Assembly: GCA_963805945.1 (NCBI GenBank)
Contig: CAWDVP010000007.1
Coordinates: forward strand, 1 to 32,704
Source: Vulcanimicrobiota bacterium
Lineage (GTDB): Bacteria; Vulcanimicrobiota; Vulcanimicrobiia; Eremiobacterales; Eremiobacteraceae
Length of the DNA: 32,704 nucleotides
Direction: 5' to 3'
Part shown: positions 4,614-13,382 of the stretch, one piece after another
Layout: the number at the start of each line of letters is the position of its first letter
Numbering within the stretch: the stretch's first letter is position 1
Translations under genes and position numbers: made by a program
Notes under the pieces: generated by a model
Told to the model about the DNA's origin: nothing
The model's database searches: none
The model's input: the letters and a program-made list of their open reading frames with translations, nothing else

Positions 4614-5471
4614 ATGAAGCCGAAACCGCTTATGGTCTGGCCCAATGCCAAACAGCGCATGCGCGACTTCGACCCCGGCGACACGTGGGGTTGCAAAGAC
4701 AAGCGCGAGGCGCAGGACAAATTGGCGCAGGACGTCGAGGCGCTGCGCGAGCTGCAAAACGTGTTGAGCGCGCAGGCGGAACATGCCGTGCTCATCATCT
4801 TCCAGGGCATGGACACGGCGGGCAAGGACAGCGCCATCAAGCACGTCATCTCGGGGGTCAATCCCCAGGGCGTCCACGTCTACAGCTTCAAAGCGCCTTC
4901 AGAAGAAGAGAAGCGCCACGACTATCTGTGGCGCGCGCAAAAAGTGATGCCGGAACGCGGCCGGATCGGCATCTTCAATCGTTCGTATTACGAGGACGTC
5001 CTCATCACGCGCGTGCACCCGGACCTGCTCGGCCCGCGCCTCGCACGGCATGCGGACAAGGAGTTCTGGAAACGCCGCTTCCGCGACATCAACGACTACG
5101 AACGCTACCTTGCCGACAACGGCACGTCGATCATCAAATTCTTCCTCAATATCTCGAAGAAAGAGCAGCGCAAGCGGCTGCTCGAGCGGCTCGACAAGCC
5201 GGACAAGCAGTGGAAGTTCTCGATCGGCGATCTGCAGCAGCGGGGCTTCTGGGACGAGTATATGAAAGCGTACGAGGCCATGGTGCATGAGACCAGCACC
5301 GCGCACGCGCCCTGGTATGTCATCCCGGCAGACCATAAGTGGTTCGCACACCTGGCCGTCGCCGACATCCTCGTGAAGCGGCTGCGCGCGCTGAAGATGT
5401 CCTACCCGAAACTGCCGCCGAGCCTGCGCGACGCGCTGCGCGAGCAGAAGCGCAAGCTTCTCAAAGGATAA
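4614..5471 (+). CDS. ppk2: Polyphosphate kinase 2 family (class III-like)
   Basis: QGMDTAGKD Walker A, IFNRSYYEDVL, APWYVIPADHKW. Confidence 0.92.
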   Translation: MKPKPLMVWPNAKQRMRDFDPGDTWGCKDKREAQDKLAQDVEALRELQNVLSAQAEHAVLIIFQGMDTAGKDSAIKHVISGVNPQGVHVYSFKAPSEEEKRHDYLWRAQKVMPERGRIGIFNRSYYEDVLITRVHPDLLGPRLARHADKEFWKRRFRDINDYERYLADNGTSIIKFFLNISKKEQRKRLLERLDKPDKQWKFSIGDLQQRGFWDEYMKAYEAMVHETSTAHAPWYVIPADHKWFAHLAVADILVKRLRALKMSYPKLPPSLRDALREQKRKLLKG

Positions 5472-5479
5472 CAAACTCG

Positions 5480-7234
5480 ATGCGCCCCGTGCCAACGCGC
5501 GATACGGCGCGGACGATCATCGCCGCCGGCGCAACCGCTGCGGTGGTCATACTGCTGGCGATCCAAGGCTGGTCGCTGCCGCACGAGGGCAGTCCGAACG
5601 CCGCCGCGTCGAGCGACGGCGCGTGCGCCGTCCGCATCACGGAGTCGTCGGGCGCGTTGGCCGCGGCCGGGCTGCGTGTCGGGGACGACGTCGATCTGCG
5701 CGCGGCAGAGCCGCTGACGCGATTGTTCTTCATCGACGCTTCGCCGATCGCGGACGAGCCGCTCTCACTGCCCGTGGTGCGGCCTGCAGGTTTGGCGACG
5801 GTCCGTGCCGTCGGCGCGGACGCTGTGCCGGTGCGCGGCTGGGTCACCGGCTTCATCGTGAAGATCGTCATCTTCTTGCTGGGGCTGCTCGTGCTGTGGC
5901 GCGGCCGCGATCGCGCGTCGCTGTTCTTCGGCATCTCGAGCCTCGCGATCTGCGCCGCGATGTATCCCGCGCCCGCCTTCCTGCCGTCGCTCGGCGGCCG
6001 CGTCGCGCTCGTGGTCGCGGTCGCGCTGCTCGCCGAGGTCGCCGCGTTTTTCTTCTATCTCATGCTCGAGCAGTTCGCGCGCGGCAACGTCTCGGAACGG
6101 CTGCTCGCGGTGACCCGCATCGTGGTCGTCGCCGCCGTGGCGGTTTTGATCGCAGACGATTTCATCTTCCCCATCGGGCGCGTCGCGACCGGCTGCATCA
6201 GCGTTCCGCTGCACGCGGTCCATCTGCCCGCCTACATGGCCGTGCTTGTCGCGTCGCTCGTCGTGCTGGCGACAGCGTTCATCGGCTCGCGGGGCGAGCA
6301 GCGCCAACGTCTGCGCTGGATCTTCTGGTCCACCGCGGTCGGGTTCTCCGGCGTGTTCATCTATATCGCCGGCCAGTTCGCCGGCTGGCACATCCCGGTC
6401 TATCCGCTCACGAACATCACCGCGGTCGCCATCCCCATCGGCTACTCGTACGCGATCCTGCGCCACCGCGTCATCGACGTCAATTTCGTGCTCAATCGAG
6501 CGCTCGTGTTCGCGGCCTCGACGACCGTCGTGTTCGGCGTCTTCGCGCTGCTCGGCAGCTATATCGAAAAGGCGGCGGTGGGCGAGCGCACGAGCCTCAT
6601 CTTGCAGGTGGCGGTCGCGCTCGGCGTGGCGTTCTCGTTCAAATGGCTCCAGGACCGCTTCGACACGATCGTCGACCGGCTGTTCTTCCGTCAACGCTAT
6701 GCGGCTGAGGCCGCGATCCGCCAGACGATCGAAGAAGTGTCCTTCGTGCGCGACGGCGCGACGCTGCTCGCGCGCGTCGCCGCCGCGCCGGTCGAGCAGC
6801 TGCACGCGCGCGGCGCCGCCATCTATCTCGACGGCGACGGCTCGTACCGCCTCGCCGCCGCCGCGGGTGAGTGGTCGAGCGTCAAGACGGTCGACGCGGA
6901 CGACCCGGCGTTCGTGCGCCTGCGCGCCACGCTGCATGAGGTGGAGCTCGACGACGTGCCGTCGGCGCTCGGGCGGGGCGTGGCGCTGCCGATGGGGCTG
7001 CAGGGCCAACTCTCAGGCGCCCTGGTATGCGCGCCGCGCGCGTCGGACGAGCGCTACGACCCGGACGAAGTGGAGATCTTGCGGTCGCTCGCGCATCAGC
7101 TCGCGCTCTCGCTGACCGCGCTCGACGCGCGCGAGTCGCTGCTGCTCATGCGGGCGCTGGCGGATGGCACGGTGACGCCGCCGGAGGCGCTCGAAAGAGC
7201 GCGTTCGTTAAGCACCAGGGAATGGAGGACGTGA
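5480..7234 (+). CDS. Polytopic membrane protein with PDZ-like loop and C-terminal GAF-like domain, no output domain
   Basis: AAAGLRVGD (PDZ-like); about 8-9 TM helices; YAILRHRVIDV and VDRLFFR linkers; ALPMGLQGQLSGALVC...YDPDEVEILRSLAHQLA (GAF-like). Confidence 0.7.
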   Translation: MRPVPTRDTARTIIAAGATAAVVILLAIQGWSLPHEGSPNAAASSDGACAVRITESSGALAAAGLRVGDDVDLRAAEPLTRLFFIDASPIADEPLSLPVVRPAGLATVRAVGADAVPVRGWVTGFIVKIVIFLLGLLVLWRGRDRASLFFGISSLAICAAMYPAPAFLPSLGGRVALVVAVALLAEVAAFFFYLMLEQFARGNVSERLLAVTRIVVVAAVAVLIADDFIFPIGRVATGCISVPLHAVHLPAYMAVLVASLVVLATAFIGSRGEQRQRLRWIFWSTAVGFSGVFIYIAGQFAGWHIPVYPLTNITAVAIPIGYSYAILRHRVIDVNFVLNRALVFAASTTVVFGVFALLGSYIEKAAVGERTSLILQVAVALGVAFSFKWLQDRFDTIVDRLFFRQRYAAEAAIRQTIEEVSFVRDGATLLARVAAAPVEQLHARGAAIYLDGDGSYRLAAAAGEWSSVKTVDADDPAFVRLRATLHEVELDDVPSALGRGVALPMGLQGQLSGALVCAPRASDERYDPDEVEILRSLAHQLALSLTALDARESLLLMRALADGTVTPPEALERARSLSTREWRT

Positions 7235-7239
7235 CCGCT

Positions 7240-8763
7240 ATGGCCCTCGCGGTGAACGACTACACGGTGCTGAAGAGCGTGCGCGCGGTCTGCCCGCGTT
7301 GCTTTGCGGAGACACCCGACTTCGATCCGGAGTGGCCGGACGATATCGCGGACGGCCATCTGGTCCGTCGCGGCGATAGCGTGTATGTGCGCCGGATGTG
7401 CCGCCGCGGACACGGCGAGGTGTGGTCGCTCTACGAAGAGGACTACGCGCTGTGGGACTACCTGCAGCAGTGGCGCGTGCCGACGAAGGTCATCAATCCG
7501 GACACGCGCGAACTGTTCCCCGCGCCCACGGGCTACGAGCACGGCCTCGGGCCGGGCCATCTGCAGCACACCTGCATCTTCTTGCTCGACATCACGTCGC
7601 AGTGCAACTTGTCGTGCCCCGCCTGCTATGCCGGCTCGAGTCCCCAGCAGACGCAGTACGTGCCGCTCGACGGCATCAAGCATGCGGTGGAGACGGCGAT
7701 CGCGCGCGAGGGCGGCCACCTCGACGTCGTCATGATCAGCGGCGGCGAGCCGACGGTGCATCCGCAGATCGTGGAGATCCTGCGCGCCATCGCGGCGCTG
7801 CCGGTGACGCGCGTGCTGCTCAACACGAACGGCATCCGCCTCGCCTCCGACGACGGGCTGCTCGCCTTCTTGGCGGAGCACCGCGACCGCATCGAGGTGT
7901 ATCTGCAGTACGACGGCCAGCGCGAAGACACGCAGCGCTATCTGCGCGGCCAGGACCTGCGGCCGATCAAAGAACGCGTGCTCGAACGCCTCTCGGCGCA
8001 CGAGGTGTTCGCGACGCTCGTCATGGTGGTGAGCGAGCAGAACGCCGATCTCATCGGCGCGGTTCTCCACACCGCGTTCGCCACGCCGTACGTGGGCGGC
8101 GTGATGTTCCAGCCGGTGTTCGCCTCGGGCCGCGCGCCCGGCATCGACGGCATGCGGCGGGTGACGACGACGGGCGTGCTGCGCCGCATCGAGACGCAGA
8201 CCGCCGGCCGGGTGAAGGCCCGGGACCTCATCGCGCTGCCTTGCAGCCATCCCGATTGCTGCTCGATCGGCTATTTCCTCAAGGACAAGCACGGCGCTTT
8301 CCACGGGCTCGCGCGCGTGCTCGGCCACGACGTGCTGCGGGCCAATCTCGGCGTCATCGGCAACAGCATCACGTTCTCCGATACGCTGGCGAGCGTGCGC
8401 GACGCGCTCGCCGGCCTCATGTCCGAATCCATGACCTTGTCGCGGCCCGAACTGGTGGGGCATCTGGCGACGCTGTGCAGCAGCTGCGACTTCGGCGGTC
8501 TCACGCAGTTGATCGCCGCGGCGTTCCGCAAAGGCGCATCCCATGAGTTCGTCGGCGCCCGGGTGAAACGCGTGACCATCAAGCATTTCATGGATGCGGA
8601 CACGCTCATCGCCGAGCGGCTCGAGCAGTGCTGCGTCCATGTGGGCAGCGCGGGCAACGACCCGGTGCGCATGCCGTTCTGCGCGGCGCGGCTCTTTCCA
8701 AAAGTGCGGGCGAAGGCGCTCGAAGGCTCGACGACTCGCGCGGCCGTAGCGCCGCACACCTGA
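7240..8763 (+). CDS. Radical SAM enzyme of the Tes/GDGT-MAS (MJ0619, COG1964)-like family
   Basis: CNLSCPAC (CX3CX2C), SGGEPTVHP, LNTNG. N-terminal CPRC...CRRGHG metal site. C-terminal KHFMD...ERLEQCCVH...PFCA. Alternative start GTG 7231. Confidence 0.85.
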   Translation: MALAVNDYTVLKSVRAVCPRCFAETPDFDPEWPDDIADGHLVRRGDSVYVRRMCRRGHGEVWSLYEEDYALWDYLQQWRVPTKVINPDTRELFPAPTGYEHGLGPGHLQHTCIFLLDITSQCNLSCPACYAGSSPQQTQYVPLDGIKHAVETAIAREGGHLDVVMISGGEPTVHPQIVEILRAIAALPVTRVLLNTNGIRLASDDGLLAFLAEHRDRIEVYLQYDGQREDTQRYLRGQDLRPIKERVLERLSAHEVFATLVMVVSEQNADLIGAVLHTAFATPYVGGVMFQPVFASGRAPGIDGMRRVTTTGVLRRIETQTAGRVKARDLIALPCSHPDCCSIGYFLKDKHGAFHGLARVLGHDVLRANLGVIGNSITFSDTLASVRDALAGLMSESMTLSRPELVGHLATLCSSCDFGGLTQLIAAAFRKGASHEFVGARVKRVTIKHFMDADTLIAERLEQCCVHVGSAGNDPVRMPFCAARLFPKVRAKALEGSTTRAAVAPHT

Positions 8764-8764
8764 T

Positions 8765-8790
8765 GTAGGGGCCGATCTTTAGATCGGCCC
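8765..8790 (+). repeat. GTAG-type REP, family A
   Basis: GTAG-GGGCCGATCT-TT-AGATCGGCCC hairpin; related copies at 23142-23205 and 27425-27490. Confidence 0.8.
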
Positions 8791-8792
8791 GT

Positions 8793-8816
8793 GGAGCGGT
8801 CGAATTCATTCGACCG
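8793..8816 (+). repeat. REP, family B
   Basis: GGAG-CGGTCGAAT-TC-ATTCGACCG; related copies at 9388, 29370 and 31114. Confidence 0.75.
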
Positions 8817-8826
8817 GAACGAGACG

Positions 8827-9102
8827 ATGACCGACACCGAAAGCGTTCTCCCCACCCCGCGCCAACAACGCGGCGAAGAGATCGAAGGCCTGGCGTTCAC
8901 GTTCTGCAAGGCCGCCGCCCTCGCGCTCATCTTCCAGAAGTACACGCTGCTCGCCACGGCGGGCATCGCGACAGTGCTTTACCTCTATGCGGCGTCGTTG
9001 GGCGTGCGCGAATGGCGCTGCTTCGTGAAGCCGCCCTGGGTCGTCATCATCATGGCGGGTCTCACCGCGTTCCAAGTCTACTGGCTCTTCCTGCGGACCT
9101 AA
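8827..9102 (+). CDS. Small membrane protein with two Cys (91 aa)
   Basis: ATG 8827 after the REP pair; hydrophobic helices; FTFCK and WRCF. Confidence 0.75.
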   Translation: MTDTESVLPTPRQQRGEEIEGLAFTFCKAAALALIFQKYTLLATAGIATVLYLYAASLGVREWRCFVKPPWVVIIMAGLTAFQVYWLFLRT

Positions 9103-9105
9103 GCC

Positions 9106-9354
9106 ATGGAAGCGGAGCCGACGAAGCCCTGCCGCACGTGCGGCACCCCGGTCGAGCCCAACGCCGCGTTCTGCCCGCAGTGCGGTGAGCACATGCCGGG
9201 GTATCCGGCGAGCGAAGTGCAGGCGCGCCACAAGCGCGATATGCGCAGCCTCTCTATCGCGCTTGCGGCGTTCCTCGGCTGCGGACTCATCGTGCTCACC
9301 GCGGTCGTGCTAGGCGCGCTCGCGGTGTGCAACGGCTTGACGCACAACCTGTAG
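9106..9354 (+). CDS. Zinc-ribbon membrane protein with C-terminal LGALAVC motif (82 aa)
   Basis: CRTCG-x9-FCPQCG ribbon, one long TM helix, starts 3 nt after the upstream stop. Confidence 0.8.
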   Translation: MEAEPTKPCRTCGTPVEPNAAFCPQCGEHMPGYPASEVQARHKRDMRSLSIALAAFLGCGLIVLTAVVLGALAVCNGLTHNL

Positions 9355-9387
9355 GGCAGTGCGCGGTGGCGGCCGAACGAATCATAT

Positions 9388-9411
9388 ATAGCGGTCGAGC
9401 TTGCTCGACCG
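9388..9411 (+). repeat. REP, family B variant
   Basis: ATAG-CGGTCGAGC-TT-GCTCGACCG; compensatory stem changes relative to other copies. Confidence 0.7.
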
Positions 9412-9448
9412 TGCCCGAGCGCAGCTCGGAGAAGCGTCGGAGCGCAGC

Positions 9449-10141
9449 ATGATCGTGTCAGCGGTGTTCTACGGTCTTGGCTACCTCGCAGGTTTGGCGG
9501 CGTTCGCGCTCATGGCGCGCAAACGCGGGATCGCGACCTCCGGTATTTGGACGCTCATGAGCGCAGGCCTCATCGGCGGTCTCGCCGGCGCGAACATCAC
9601 GCAGCTCCTCGTCACCGGTTCGCCGGGCAAGACCCTGCTCGGCGGCATCATCTTCGGCTACCTCGCGGTCATCATCGCGAAGCGCACGCTTGGCATCACC
9701 CGGCCCACCGGCGACCTGTTCGCGATGGCGCTCGCCGCCGGCGAAGCCGTCGGCCGCTGGGGCTGCTTCTTCGGTTTGTGCTGCTACGGCAAGCTCGCGG
9801 CGAACCTGCCATGGGCGGTCTACGAGCACGGCGCGTATCGCCACCCGACACAAGCCTATCTCGCACTGGCCGCGACAGGCGTCTTCTGCATCCTGTGGCA
9901 GCTGCAGAAGAAACCGCTGCCGGAAAACGCGCTGTTCTACGCCCAAGGGATGCTGTTCTGCGCCGCGCGCTTCGGCATCGAGTTCTTCCGCGAGGCGCCG
10001 GCGATTCTCGGCGGATTCACGCTGGCGCAGCTGGCGTGCACGGCCGGCTTCGTGTTCTTCGCATATAAGATGTACGGACTGCTCGCCGAGAAGGAGCGCG
10101 TGCCATCGCTGACACTTGCGCCAACTGCGGCCACGAGCTAG
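9449..10141 (+). CDS. Divergent prolipoprotein diacylglyceryl transferase (Lgt)-family protein
   Basis: FYGLGY, GKTLLGG, GRWGCFFGLCCYG, LPWAV, RHPTQAY, RFGIEFFRE; GGAG SD before ATG 9449. Confidence 0.85.
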   Translation: MIVSAVFYGLGYLAGLAAFALMARKRGIATSGIWTLMSAGLIGGLAGANITQLLVTGSPGKTLLGGIIFGYLAVIIAKRTLGITRPTGDLFAMALAAGEAVGRWGCFFGLCCYGKLAANLPWAVYEHGAYRHPTQAYLALAATGVFCILWQLQKKPLPENALFYAQGMLFCAARFGIEFFREAPAILGGFTLAQLACTAGFVFFAYKMYGLLAEKERVPSLTLAPTAATS

Positions 10142-10497
10142 CCGCCGGGGCGCTCGTCTGCCCGAACTGCGGCGCCGCCATCCCGACCAAGCCTGGGGAA
10201 GAAGGCGCGGGGACGGTGGTCGCCGGCGCGGTGGGCGGTCTCGCGGTGGGCTGCTTCGTCGGCTTTCTCGTCGGGTTCTCTTTGGTGGCCATCGCCTACT
10301 CGCTCACCTCGCATCTCCTCATGGCGCACAGCAGGCAGCTCGTATCGATAGGCACCGATATCGTCGTGGTGCTGCTCGCCGTTTGGGCTCTCATGGCCGT
10401 CAGAACCAAGCCGCATCGGTATTTCTTGGCGGCCGCGATTATCACGACGACCGTGGTGGCGCTCGGCGCCTTTTCGGTCTGCGGGCCTCAGAACTAA
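10105..10497 (+). CDS. Zinc-ribbon three-TM membrane protein with C-terminal LGAFSVC motif (130 aa), probable ATC start
   Basis: The frame of ORF 10216..10497 extends upstream to encode CANCGHELAAGALVCPNCG. AAGGAG lies 8 nt before in-frame ATC 10105. In-frame stop at 10066-10068. Confidence 0.7.
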   Translation: MADTCANCGHELAAGALVCPNCGAAIPTKPGEEGAGTVVAGAVGGLAVGCFVGFLVGFSLVAIAYSLTSHLLMAHSRQLVSIGTDIVVVLLAVWALMAVRTKPHRYFLAAAIITTTVVALGAFSVCGPQN

Positions 10498-12539: not shown

Positions 12540-13382
12540 CTAGCTCGGATGACCGGCATGAGCCAAAGGACGGAGATACAAGAGTGTGAACAGCACGAAA
12601 TTGACGACGCCATGGGTCGCGATCGGTGCCCAGATGTTACGAGCACGATAGTAGACCCATGCTTGGAATAGGCCAAACGTTGTCAGGGTCGGCAGAGCAT
12701 ACGGTTCGAAGTGCCAGAGCCCGAAGAGGATTGAGCTTGCCAGTGCGGCCGGCAGTGGCGCCATTCGCTGCGCGAGCCCCGCGAAGAGCAGGCCCCTGAA
12801 TAGGGTCTCCTCCGCTATAGGCGACACTAACGAAGCTTGAAGTATGTCGAGCGCGTACGCGAGCGGACCATGATGTCCGGCGATGATGCGGGGCCACGGG
12901 CCTACGTGCGAGCCTACGAAATGGGTCCAGATCCATTGGACGATTCCAGCGGCGAACAATGCAAGGATGCCGACACCCGCTCCGAAGCCGATCTGCGACG
13001 CGGTGGGTTTGATAAAGCCTAACGAGCGCATGGAGCTCGCTGGCAAGAGCCCACGCAGGCAGTACACAGTCGCGACTGCTGCAAGCGAGCGAATTGATAC
13101 CGCGACAGAAACCTTGACGGGACTCTCGACGGCCGCCAGAAGCATGGGATCGTGGCGCATCTTACTCAGGAGCGCGATAAGGCCTGGGAGACTGCGCGCC
13201 TCCGGATACATCCATGCGGCGATCGCCCAGTCGGCCAGCGCGTTCGACAAAAACAGGGCGACGATGCCGGCAATAAACACGATCGCAAGGCCCCAGCCGC
13301 GCCACGCGCCGGCTTGGAATGCCGCTTGCTCGAGGACTCGGTTGCCTGCCATGGGCGAAACCGCTGCGTCAGACACGTCCAC
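12540..13382 (-). CDS. CPBP (CAAX/Abi) family intramembrane glutamic endopeptidase
   Basis: EETLFRG, FGLWH, HGVVN motifs. Start uncertain (alternative ATG 13352). Confidence 0.88.
   Translation of the reverse strand: MDVSDAAVSPMAGNRVLEQAAFQAGAWRGWGLAIVFIAGIVALFLSNALADWAIAAWMYPEARSLPGLIALLSKMRHDPMLLAAVESPVKVSVAVSIRSLAAVATVYCLRGLLPASSMRSLGFIKPTASQIGFGAGVGILALFAAGIVQWIWTHFVGSHVGPWPRIIAGHHGPLAYALDILQASLVSPIAEETLFRGLLFAGLAQRMAPLPAALASSILFGLWHFEPYALPTLTTFGLFQAWVYYRARNIWAPIATHGVVNFVLFTLLYLRPLAHAGHPS

What the first reader, a model, noticed from the sequence alone, without database searches (positions are those of the whole stretch)
7240..10497. Candidate lipid/lipopeptide-modifying system: Tes-like radical SAM + divergent Lgt + three Cys-bearing small membrane proteins
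Seen: five co-oriented, closely spaced genes, namely a radical SAM enzyme, a 2-Cys membrane protein, zinc-ribbon protein 1, an Lgt-like protein and zinc-ribbon protein 2. Established: archaeal Tes/GDGT-MAS joins lipid tails by C-C bonds via a sulfur-linked intermediate, and Lgt moves diacylglyceryl from phosphatidylglycerol to a Cys thiol at the end of a TM helix. Inference: the Lgt paralog lipidates Cys in the neighbouring small proteins and the radical SAM enzyme cross-links or modifies the acyl chains. This could give macrocyclic or membrane-spanning lipid-protein conjugates, a lipidated RiPP-like product, or a carrier-protein route to bacterial membrane-spanning lipids. I know of no characterised pathway combining these parts.
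Basis: partly seen in the sequence, partly recalled or inferred. Interest (0 to 1): 0.92.

Follow-up and report, generated by a model that had tools for sequence, protein, structure and literature searches.

The report
Lgt-paralog, Tes-fold enzyme, cysteine mini-protein cassette
A soil-type bacterium carries a five-gene cassette, found in many bacteria but not described in the papers searched, that pairs a relative of the archaeal enzyme that welds lipid tails with a spare, altered lipid-anchoring enzyme and small cysteine-bearing membrane proteins, and it probably makes a new kind of lipid-modified membrane protein.

Summary
The five genes are real and form a conserved unit. An Lgt-like gene lies in 20 of 21 Eremiobacterota loci and 34 of 38 metagenome loci with full flanks, and two Lgt–radical SAM fusions exist. 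The enzyme has the Tes/GDGT-MAS fold (TM 0.77) but fails the Tes model (176 bits, cut-off 450). It has lost the N-terminal auxiliary cluster motif and keeps the C-terminal cluster cysteines. The Lgt is a second copy with His103 lost and Asn146 changed to Cys.

The three small proteins are of two kinds. The two zinc-ribbon proteins belong to a hypervariable class with one Cys at a helix end (75 of 107 neighbours, against 2 of 29 distant ORFs). The 2-Cys protein is a conserved partner seen only with this enzyme clade. The last gene probably starts at ATC 10105.

Best reading: the enzyme modifies a phospholipid tail end, then the Lgt paralog transfers the lipid to the cysteine (about 45%). No chemistry is shown. 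I found no description in the papers searched. This scan noted the module before on other DNA (85 findings, at least 71 genomes).

The parts
7240..8763 (+). Tes/GDGT-MAS-fold radical SAM enzyme, 507 aa. Keeps the rubredoxin site (C18, C21, C54, H58), the radical SAM motif (C122, C126, C129) and the C-terminal cluster-region cysteines (C335, C340, C341, C464, C465, C481). Lacks the N-terminal [4Fe-4S] motif. Has an extra CxxC (C413, C416).
   Evidence: PF04055 63 bits; TrsS 213.6 of 490 and Tes 176.1 of 450; 7tol_A E 7.7e-34; model pLDDT 86, TM 0.77 to 7tom; motif counts
8764..8790 (.). GTAG-headed palindromic repeat (REP-like; label recalled) between the enzyme and the next gene. It is a genome-wide repeat, not a part of the cassette.
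   Evidence: 75 matches within 3 mismatches across the 2.3 Mb genome
8827..9102 (+). ORF2: conserved membrane protein of 91 aa, probably three helices, with two invariant Cys (C27, C65). Partner of this enzyme clade, not an acceptor-type protein.
   Evidence: No Pfam or NCBIfam hit; C27 and C65 invariant in 25 of 25 aligned sequences; found beside 41 enzymes, 37 scored as lacking the N-cluster motif and 4 truncated, and beside 0 of 73 that have it
9106..9354 (+). ZR1: zinc ribbon, basic patch, one transmembrane helix, then Cys75 seven residues from the C-terminus. Putative lipid acceptor.
   Evidence: PF13240 29.9 bits; hydropathy; motif class
9449..10141 (+). Lgt paralog, 230 aa. Keeps the equivalents of Y26, R143, G154, R239 and E243. 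H103 is Leu and N146 is Cys.
   Evidence: PF01790 79 bits; TIGR00544 48 of 118.9; model pLDDT 94, sole significant fold match 5azb, TM 0.73; residue counts over 82 paralogs
10091..10107 (+). Ribosome-binding site AAGGAG and a probable non-canonical ATC start of ZR2, inside the 3' end of lgt
   Evidence: Same spacing and ATC in the window, L001, L002 and L017. Use as a start codon is inferred.
10105..10497 (+). ZR2: zinc ribbon, three transmembrane helices, then Cys126 four residues from the C-terminus. Putative lipid acceptor.
   Evidence: PF13240 30.7 bits; hydropathy; motif class

Best explanation
The cassette is a dedicated protein-lipidation pathway that uses a radically modified lipid. 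Step 1 (inferred): at the cytoplasmic face the Tes-fold enzyme takes phospholipid tails into its tunnel, abstracts H at or near a tail end, holds the radical on a sulfur of its retained C-terminal [4Fe-4S] cluster and resolves it, most likely by joining two tails (macrocyclic or membrane-spanning). ORF2 acts as its membrane anchor or metal/redox partner. Step 2 (inferred): the Lgt paralog moves this modified diacylglyceryl from phosphatidylglycerol onto the outer-face Cys of ZR1 and ZR2, whose non-canonical lipobox the housekeeping Lgt and LspA would mostly not recognise, so the product stays an uncleaved membrane protein. Lipid first is preferred because the Fe-S enzyme and the acceptor Cys lie on opposite faces. 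Shown: linkage, fusion, folds, residue patterns. My odds by step: functional unit about 95%; the paralog lipidates the Cys about 70%; the enzyme acts on a lipid tail about 60%; a C-C tail weld specifically about 30-35%.
For: Linkage: 26 of 32 and 56 of 80 loci, or 20 of 21 and 34 of 38 with at least 1.5 kb on both flanks; co-presence in 151 genomes; also Mycobacterium, Nonomuraea, Chondrinema and Persicobacter. Fusions P0171 (733 aa) and P0203 (671 aa), the latter lacking the N-cluster motif like the window's enzyme. Folds: 7tom TM 0.77 and 5azb TM 0.73. The three Cys conserved in true Tes at the C-cluster region are kept in 43, 42 and 42 of 43 clade members. In GDGT-MAS that cluster carries the S-C intermediate, and Met439 and Tyr459 variants stay active (PMC9433317). 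The Lgt paralog keeps R143, G154 and R239 in 82 of 82. Helix-end Cys in 75 of 107 adjacent small membrane ORFs against 2 of 29 distant ones and 23 of 304 genome-wide. Basic residues lie upstream of the helix in 68 of 75, and only 3 of 75 match the canonical lipobox. Housekeeping lgt and lspA lie together elsewhere in the genome.
Against: No biochemical datum exists. His103 is absent in 82 of 82 paralogs and is replaced by Leu, Val, Glu or Met, beyond the Y/W/F variants reported in PMC13251419, so transferase activity is not assured. Close relatives of the enzyme (67-69% identical; L028, L032, G142) occur without Lgt or ORF2, beside methyltransferase, thioredoxin and MerA-like genes. The largest Lgt-linked clade has mostly lost the C-cluster cysteines, so a Tes-type weld cannot be the chemistry of the whole module. 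ORF2 was not found in several members of the clade (L064, L077, L085, G079, G144). Its match with loss of the N-cluster is one clade's history, not independent events. The motif rule was written after seeing examples, and related loci are not independent. Which cysteines ligate the C-cluster is inferred from conservation, not read from a structure.
Confidence: 0.45

Rival explanations
1. Carbon-heteroatom chemistry. The enzyme functionalises a lipid tail end with sulfur (a thiol, or a thioether to a protein Cys such as the ORF2 pair) or with a metalloid such as methylated arsenic instead of welding two tails, and the Lgt paralog then hands that lipid to the small proteins.
For: GDGT-MAS forms an S-C lipid intermediate (PMC9433317). 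Non-Lgt branches sit by an arsenite methyltransferase (L050, 312 bits against a cut-off of 263) or DVU_1556-like methyltransferases (L051 passes the cut-off; L066, L069, L108, L131, L138 and L145 fall below it). ArsP-family permeases lie in three Lgt-bearing loci (L104, L106, L143). The main Lgt clade lacks the C-cluster cysteines.
Against: The window's cassette has no methyltransferase or arsenic gene among the neighbours examined. An earlier scan note on the methyltransferase pair found nothing tying it to arsenic (e1-5424454, unchecked). A search for arsenolipid plus radical SAM found no paper.
Confidence: 0.2
2. The product is a free lipid. The enzyme makes macrocyclic or membrane-spanning bacterial lipids, and the Lgt paralog only binds, presents or moves them, with the small proteins as carriers or regulators.
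For: His103 lost in 82 of 82. Bacterial Tes homologs have been proposed as brGDGT synthases (PMC8941075). Fusion fits substrate channelling.
Against: It does not explain the single helix-end Cys kept in otherwise unrelated proteins. The distribution is patchy (21 of 151 genomes), unlike a core membrane enzyme. Tes homologs were not detected in diabolic-acid producers, and in only 3 of 14 iso-diabolic-acid-producing acidobacteria (PMC13159169).
Confidence: 0.15
3. A lipidated RiPP. After lipidation the short C-terminal tails are cut off as small lipopeptides that the radical SAM enzyme cross-links.
For: 52 of 75 motif proteins have no further helix after the Cys. LspA is present in the genome. 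ICMT-family genes accompany two loci (L106, L115).
Against: The tails share no sequence. 23 of 75 continue into a second helix. Only 16 of 75 have the small residue at -1 of the canonical lipobox. I saw no protease or exporter recurring beside the cassette (read by eye). The enzyme has a lipid-tunnel fold, not a SPASM fold.
Confidence: 0.08
4. Reverse order or peptide target. The small protein is lipidated with ordinary diacylglyceryl first, and the enzyme then links the anchor's tail to another lipid or to the protein.
Against: In GDGT-MAS the tails enter the enzyme with head groups outside (PMC9433317). An outer-leaflet anchor would have to cross the inner leaflet (inference).
Confidence: 0.1

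Closest known systems
Tetraether synthase Tes / GDGT-MAS (M. jannaschii MJ0619; PDB 7TOL, 7TOM; NCBIfam NF045702)
   Same: Whole-length fold (TM 0.77), rubredoxin site, radical SAM motif, C-terminal cluster-region cysteines.
   Different: 176 bits against a cut-off of 450. N-cluster ligands C73/C77/C80 lost, Met439 is Lys, Tyr459 is Val, extra CxxC, and Lgt and membrane-protein partners.
Radical SAM (seleno)protein TrsS (NF045646) and DVU_1556-family methyltransferase context
   Same: Best-scoring NCBIfam model, over nearly the whole length.
   Different: 213.6 bits against a cut-off of 490; the ORF has no internal stop that could encode Sec; partners are Lgt and Cys mini-proteins, not a methyltransferase.
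Lgt, phosphatidylglycerol:prolipoprotein diacylglyceryl transferase (E. coli, PDB 5AZB; PF01790, TIGR00544)
   Same: Fold (TM 0.73); Y26, R143, G154, R239, E243 equivalents.
   Different: Below the TIGR00544 cut-off. H103 is Leu with a Lys/Arg three residues earlier in 76 of 82; N146 is Cys; 230 aa; a second copy beside housekeeping lgt; candidate substrates have internal or C-terminal non-canonical lipoboxes.
Second mycobacterial Lgt MSMEG_5408
   Same: [quoted passage not shown] The M. branderi cassette Lgt shows the same two changes by eye.
   Different: I could not check whether MSMEG_5408 lies in such a cassette. This is a lead only.
Bacterial membrane-spanning lipid synthase Mss
   Same: A radical SAM enzyme that joins fatty-acyl tails (PMC13159169).
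   Different: Described there as only remotely related to Tes. No sequence comparison was made here.

Membership tests
Tes / GDGT-MAS | NF045702 score at or above 450 bits | tested here: not met
   176.1 bits; a true member from the same phylum scores 560.5 (L055)
Tes / GDGT-MAS | Four-domain fold with lipid tunnel | tested here: met
   Foldseek 7tom E 7e-34, TM 0.77, next hit 0.35. Tunnel geometry itself was not inspected.
Tes / GDGT-MAS | Rubredoxin C9/C12/C33/H36 and CX3CX2C motif | tested here: met
   C18, C21, C54, H58 and C122, C126, C129
Tes / GDGT-MAS | [4Fe-4S]N ligands C73, C77, C80 plus His | tested here: not met
   Motif absent in P0001 and in 120 of 120 closest homologs
Tes / GDGT-MAS | [4Fe-4S]C cysteine ligands | tested here: inconclusive
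   C340, C464 and C481 match the Cys conserved in two true Tes proteins. Ligand identity is inferred from conservation.
Tes / GDGT-MAS | Met439 and Tyr459 (invariant in 1000 archaeal homologs) | tested here: not met
   Lys in 43 of 43 and Val in 40 of 43. Variants at both positions remain active in GDGT-MAS.
Tes / GDGT-MAS | Forms C-C bonds between lipid tails | not testable with these tools
   Needs an enzyme assay
TrsS (NF045646) | Score at or above 490 bits | tested here: not met
   213.6 bits
Lgt | PF01790 domain and Lgt fold | tested here: met
   79.1 bits against 24.9; 5azb TM 0.73
Lgt | TIGR00544 equivalog cut-off 118.9 | tested here: not met
   48 bits; the housekeeping copy scores 152.4
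Lgt | Six residues essential in E. coli (Y26, H103, R143, N146, G154, R239) | tested here: not met
   4 of 6 kept; H103 is Leu, N146 is Cys. N146C also occurs in the partly functional Leptospira Lgt.
Lgt | Diacylglyceryl transfer from PG to Cys | not testable with these tools
   Needs mass spectrometry
Bacterial lipoprotein precursor | N-terminal signal peptide with [LVI][ASTVI][GAS]C | tested here: not met
   The ZR1 and ZR2 Cys are C-terminal with Val at -1; 3 of 75 family motifs are canonical (consensus from PMC4728403)
Bacterial lipoprotein precursor | Basic region, hydrophobic helix, Cys on the outer face | tested here: inconclusive
   Charge and hydropathy pattern fit; topology is not measured
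Lipidated RiPP cluster | Conserved leader/core, dedicated protease or exporter, peptide-type radical SAM | tested here: not met
   No shared tail sequence or recurring protease seen; the enzyme's fold is Tes-like

The most novel reading that the evidence does not exclude
Bacteria have a second lipidation pathway that anchors small integral membrane proteins through a macrocyclic or membrane-spanning (tail-welded) diacylglyceryl thioether. It comes in at least two chemical subtypes. The window's subtype keeps the Tes C-terminal cluster and uses a two-cysteine membrane partner in place of the lost N-terminal cluster. Many bacterial 'Tes homologs' would then make lipid-protein conjugates, not free brGDGTs.
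Probability: 0.3. Interest if true: 0.9.

Novelty: categorically new. Interest (0 to 1): 0.74.

Why it matters
Bacterial Tes homologs are cited as candidate brGDGT synthases, but the papers read say their activity is unconfirmed. In the metagenome sample here most such homologs sit beside an Lgt paralog (34 of 38 loci with full flanks), which points to another function and cautions against using them as genetic markers for a paleoclimate lipid. The cassette offers an enzyme, a transferase and candidate substrates in 3.3 kb, so the question is directly testable. It would also explain a class of second lgt copies and define a non-canonical internal lipobox. If the weld is real, it would be a lipid-protein conjugate of a type that I did not find described.

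Tried and rejected
Complex prediction of the enzyme with ORF2 was not available, so no verdict exists on binding. No RNA holder was listed for the cassette; this is no evidence on expression. A search for forms of the enzyme longer than 946 aa found none (weak evidence). A search for longer ORF2 forms gave 8 proteins: P0282 reads as an in-frame enzyme-ORF2 fusion but is a single N-truncated record, P0278 looks frameshifted, and P0276 is an Lgt remnant joined to ORF2, so I do not count them as fusions. The Lgt-to-enzyme read-through in L030 runs through repeat DNA in an assembly with a frameshift, and was not counted. P0265 and P0272 look like mis-called fragments. The sources of the fusion proteins could not be looked up. 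Atlas searches for ORF2 and ZR2 gave only unnamed clusters. The phylum search centred on G151 returned the same phylum again. An all-frame clustering of neighbours was swamped by shadow ORFs. The promoter scan gave 1 site against 0.9 expected. GC content of the cassette matches its flanks. The CAAX-protease-like gene at 12540-13382 had no hit in 32 related loci and was rejected as a part. Lgt and enzyme trees agree only in part (Spearman 0.59; 15 shared supported splits out of 25 and 36), and shared ancestry alone could give this. The careful tree did not finish; one search is the quick tree. The intended control of small membrane ORFs beside non-Lgt enzymes had 0 ORFs. The original MSMEG_5408 paper was not held. 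Supplements were not read for any paper; the sequence-similarity network in the supplement of PMC9433317 and the tables of PMC8941075 may bear on novelty.
Full report
1. Observation. The five genes are present on the + strand as described: a 507-aa radical SAM enzyme (7240-8763), a 91-aa membrane protein ORF2 (8827-9102), ZR1 (9106-9354), an Lgt-like protein (9449-10141) and ZR2 (ending 10497). ZR2 has no standard start ahead of its zinc ribbon. AAGGAG at 10091-10096 is followed 8 nt later by an in-frame ATC, and the three closest relatives with this gene order (L001, L002, L017) show the same arrangement. I infer an ATC start at 10105. The closest relatives are Eremiobacterota (Vulcanimicrobiota) genomes. 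The palindrome at 8764-8790 is a genome-wide repeat (75 matches).

2. The genes are a unit. An Lgt-like gene lies in 26 of 32 genome loci and 56 of 80 metagenome loci. Counting only loci with at least 1.5 kb on both sides gives 20 of 21 and 34 of 38. The 80 were the best of 566 confirmed matches, ranked by likeness to this enzyme. In 151 genomes of the class the enzyme was found in 21, the Lgt paralog in 20 of those and ORF2 in 18 of those, plus one weak ORF2 hit in another genome. The pairing recurs in Mycobacterium branderi, Nonomuraea, Chondrinema and Persicobacter. Two full-length Lgt-enzyme fusions were found among 16 proteins scanned out of 150 listed representatives (P0171, P0203). None of the seven flanking window genes tested hit any of 32 related loci.

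3. The enzyme. Its model (pLDDT 86) matches GDGT-MAS at TM 0.77, with the next hit at 0.35. It scores 176 against the Tes cut-off of 450 and 214 against the TrsS cut-off of 490. GDGT-MAS has a rubredoxin site, an N-terminal cluster (C73, C77, C80, His), the SAM cluster and a C-terminal cluster whose sulfur traps the lipid radical (PMC9433317; passages and sections 8-9 read). The window's enzyme keeps the rubredoxin and SAM motifs and lacks the N-cluster motif, as do 120 of its 120 closest homologs. It keeps C340, C464 and C481, the positions that are Cys in two true Tes proteins of the same phylum, in 43, 42 and 42 of 43 clade members. Met439 is Lys and Tyr459 is mostly Val. That these three are the cluster ligands is inferred. 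The larger Lgt-linked clade (57 sequences) shows the reverse pattern: N-cluster kept, those three cysteines mostly lost. The module therefore has at least two subtypes, and the window's is the one that could still use the Tes mechanism. The N-cluster-less enzymes group together (FastTree support 0.85 for the group with L113/L150 and 1.0 for its core, 91 sequences after dropping 32 near-duplicates and short rows; quick IQ-TREE 94 for the wider group).

4. ORF2 is not an acceptor-type protein. It is conserved in sequence, with C27 and C65 invariant in 25 of 25 aligned copies and no family hit. It was found beside 41 enzymes: 37 lack the N-cluster motif, 4 are truncated there, and 0 of 73 enzymes with the motif have it. 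This is a single clade's history, and ORF2 was not found at L064, L077, L085, L028, L032, G079, G142 or G144. Charge and hydropathy suggest both Cys face the cytoplasm (only two of the three presumed helices passed the threshold). A shared metal site with the clade's C413/C416 pair (CxxCD in 101 of 120) is a hypothesis that I could not test.

5. The Lgt paralog. It has the Lgt fold (5azb, TM 0.73, only significant hit). The genome's housekeeping lgt lies next to lspA on another contig. Over 82 cassette paralogs R143, G154 and R239 are invariant, E243 is Glu or Asp, H103 is never His, N146 is Cys in 81, and a Lys or Arg stands three residues before the H103 position in 76. PMC13251419 (passages) lists Y26, H103, R143, N146, G154 and R239 as essential in E. 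coli, but reports Y, W or F at 103 in other bacteria and N146C in Leptospira Lgt and in MSMEG_5408. Activity is therefore plausible with changed specificity, not assured. A preprint (10.1101/2025.01.07.631728, passages) speculates that MSMEG_5408 has a different lipid preference.

6. The acceptors. Small membrane ORFs next to the pair differ widely in sequence but share one Cys at the far end of a helix. A fixed rule found it in 75 of 107 such ORFs (57 of 86 loci), against 2 of 29 ORFs more than 1.5 kb away and 23 of 304 in the window's genome. The rule was written after seeing examples, gene calls were my own heuristic, and kin are not independent; several misses carry the Cys by eye. In 52 the Cys has no further helix after it and in 23 a second helix follows. 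Basic residues precede the helix in 68 of 75, which fits an outer-face Cys as in a lipoprotein signal peptide, yet only 3 of 75 match the canonical lipobox and 16 have a small residue at -1 (consensus from PMC4728403, passages). Zinc ribbons occur in 16 of 27 Lgt-bearing Eremiobacterota loci, so they are an optional cytoplasmic addition. ZR1 and ZR2 are the only proteins of this design found in the genome.

7. Mechanism. Lgt's active site faces the periplasm and an Fe-S enzyme works in the cytoplasm (established knowledge). The simplest order is that the enzyme modifies a phospholipid tail and the paralog transfers the modified diacylglyceryl to the acceptor Cys, giving an uncleaved, specially anchored membrane protein. 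I put this at 45%, with a C-C weld as the likeliest single modification. Against it, close orphan copies of the enzyme occur without Lgt, non-Lgt branches pair with ArsM-like methyltransferases and the main Lgt clade lacks the C-cluster cysteines. Carbon-heteroatom chemistry (20%), a free-lipid product (15%), the reverse order (10%) and a released lipopeptide (8%) remain. Nothing here shows the physiological role; the patchy distribution suggests an accessory envelope function.

8. Comparison and novelty. It works like Tes plus Lgt but is a member of neither defined family, and the small proteins are not canonical lipoproteins. Searches for 'tetraether synthase' with 'prolipoprotein diacylglyceryl transferase', 'tes homolog' with 'lgt', 'GDGT-MAS' with 'lgt' and 'radical SAM' with 'diacylglyceryl transferase', 'lipobox' and 'paralog' each found no paper. 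The library lacks most subscription papers, and I read no supplements. Passages of PMC8941075, PMC10087280, PMC13159169, PMC13274423 and 10.1101/2024.06.25.600576 treat bacterial Tes homologs as possible lipid synthases; 'lipoprotein' or 'diacylglyceryl' did not occur where searched. PMC13188914 lists TrsS in a table only; 10.1101/2025.10.20.683597 was seen as an abstract. This scan has noted the module before: 85 findings in at least 71 genomes, including an Eremiobacterota case and a note on lost C-terminal ligands. These are unchecked notes and not independent support. I reached my reading before seeing them. Look-ups by ORF2 sequence and by place found nothing.

9. Verdict. The cassette is real, widespread and, as far as I could search, undescribed. 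Its chemistry is unproven but directly testable. Interest 0.74.

Noticed in passing
window 8764-8790: A GTAG-headed palindrome with 75 near-copies in the genome, in both orientations and sometimes in pairs. It looks like a REP family; no transposase was sought.
   Followed up: partly
window 10091-10107; L001, L002, L017: A conserved Shine-Dalgarno plus in-frame ATC suggests a non-canonical start that would lower ZR2 output.
   Followed up: partly
L055:1447-3021 (G009; similar matches in G016, G022, G027, G031): A true Tes by NCBIfam (560.5 bits, cut-off 450) in family f12 of the same bacterial phylum, with Met439 and Tyr459 equivalents; only L055 was scored. Candidate bacterial tetraether producers.
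   Followed up: partly
L050, L051, L066, L069, L108, L131, L138, L145: Tes-fold enzymes without Lgt sit beside ArsM or DVU_1556-like methyltransferases. Terminal arsenylation of lipids is a possible function; this is speculation.
   Followed up: partly
L028, L032, L043 (G142): Orphan copies 67-69% identical to the window's enzyme lie in thiol-redox or MerA-like neighbourhoods without Lgt or ORF2.
   Followed up: partly
L003, L004, L012, L019, L020, L030 (gene after ORF2): In this subgroup the acceptor has a Pro-x-Pro-Cys motif and a second Cys 9-13 residues later, near the C-terminus, which could form a disulfide or take a second lipid.
   Followed up: no
L104, L106, L115, L143; L098, L134: Some cassettes lie with ArsP-family permeases, ICMT-family and DUF4395 genes; others have a 2OG-Fe(II) oxygenase directly upstream.
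   Followed up: no
L064:7707-9352: An IS200/IS605 element lies directly after the enzyme in M. branderi, where ORF2 would be expected.
   Followed up: no
L003, L005, L006, L008-L012, L014 and others: In many Vulcanimicrobiaceae-type loci the cassette sits just upstream of groES-groEL.
   Followed up: no
window 5339-7234: A multi-pass membrane protein with a C-terminal GAF domain and no output domain ends 5 nt before the enzyme; it is not conserved beside the cassette.
   Followed up: no
L017, L020: Record titles say Binatus and Limnocylindria, but both genomes came back in the Eremiobacterota phylum sample, so the titles may be wrong.
   Followed up: no
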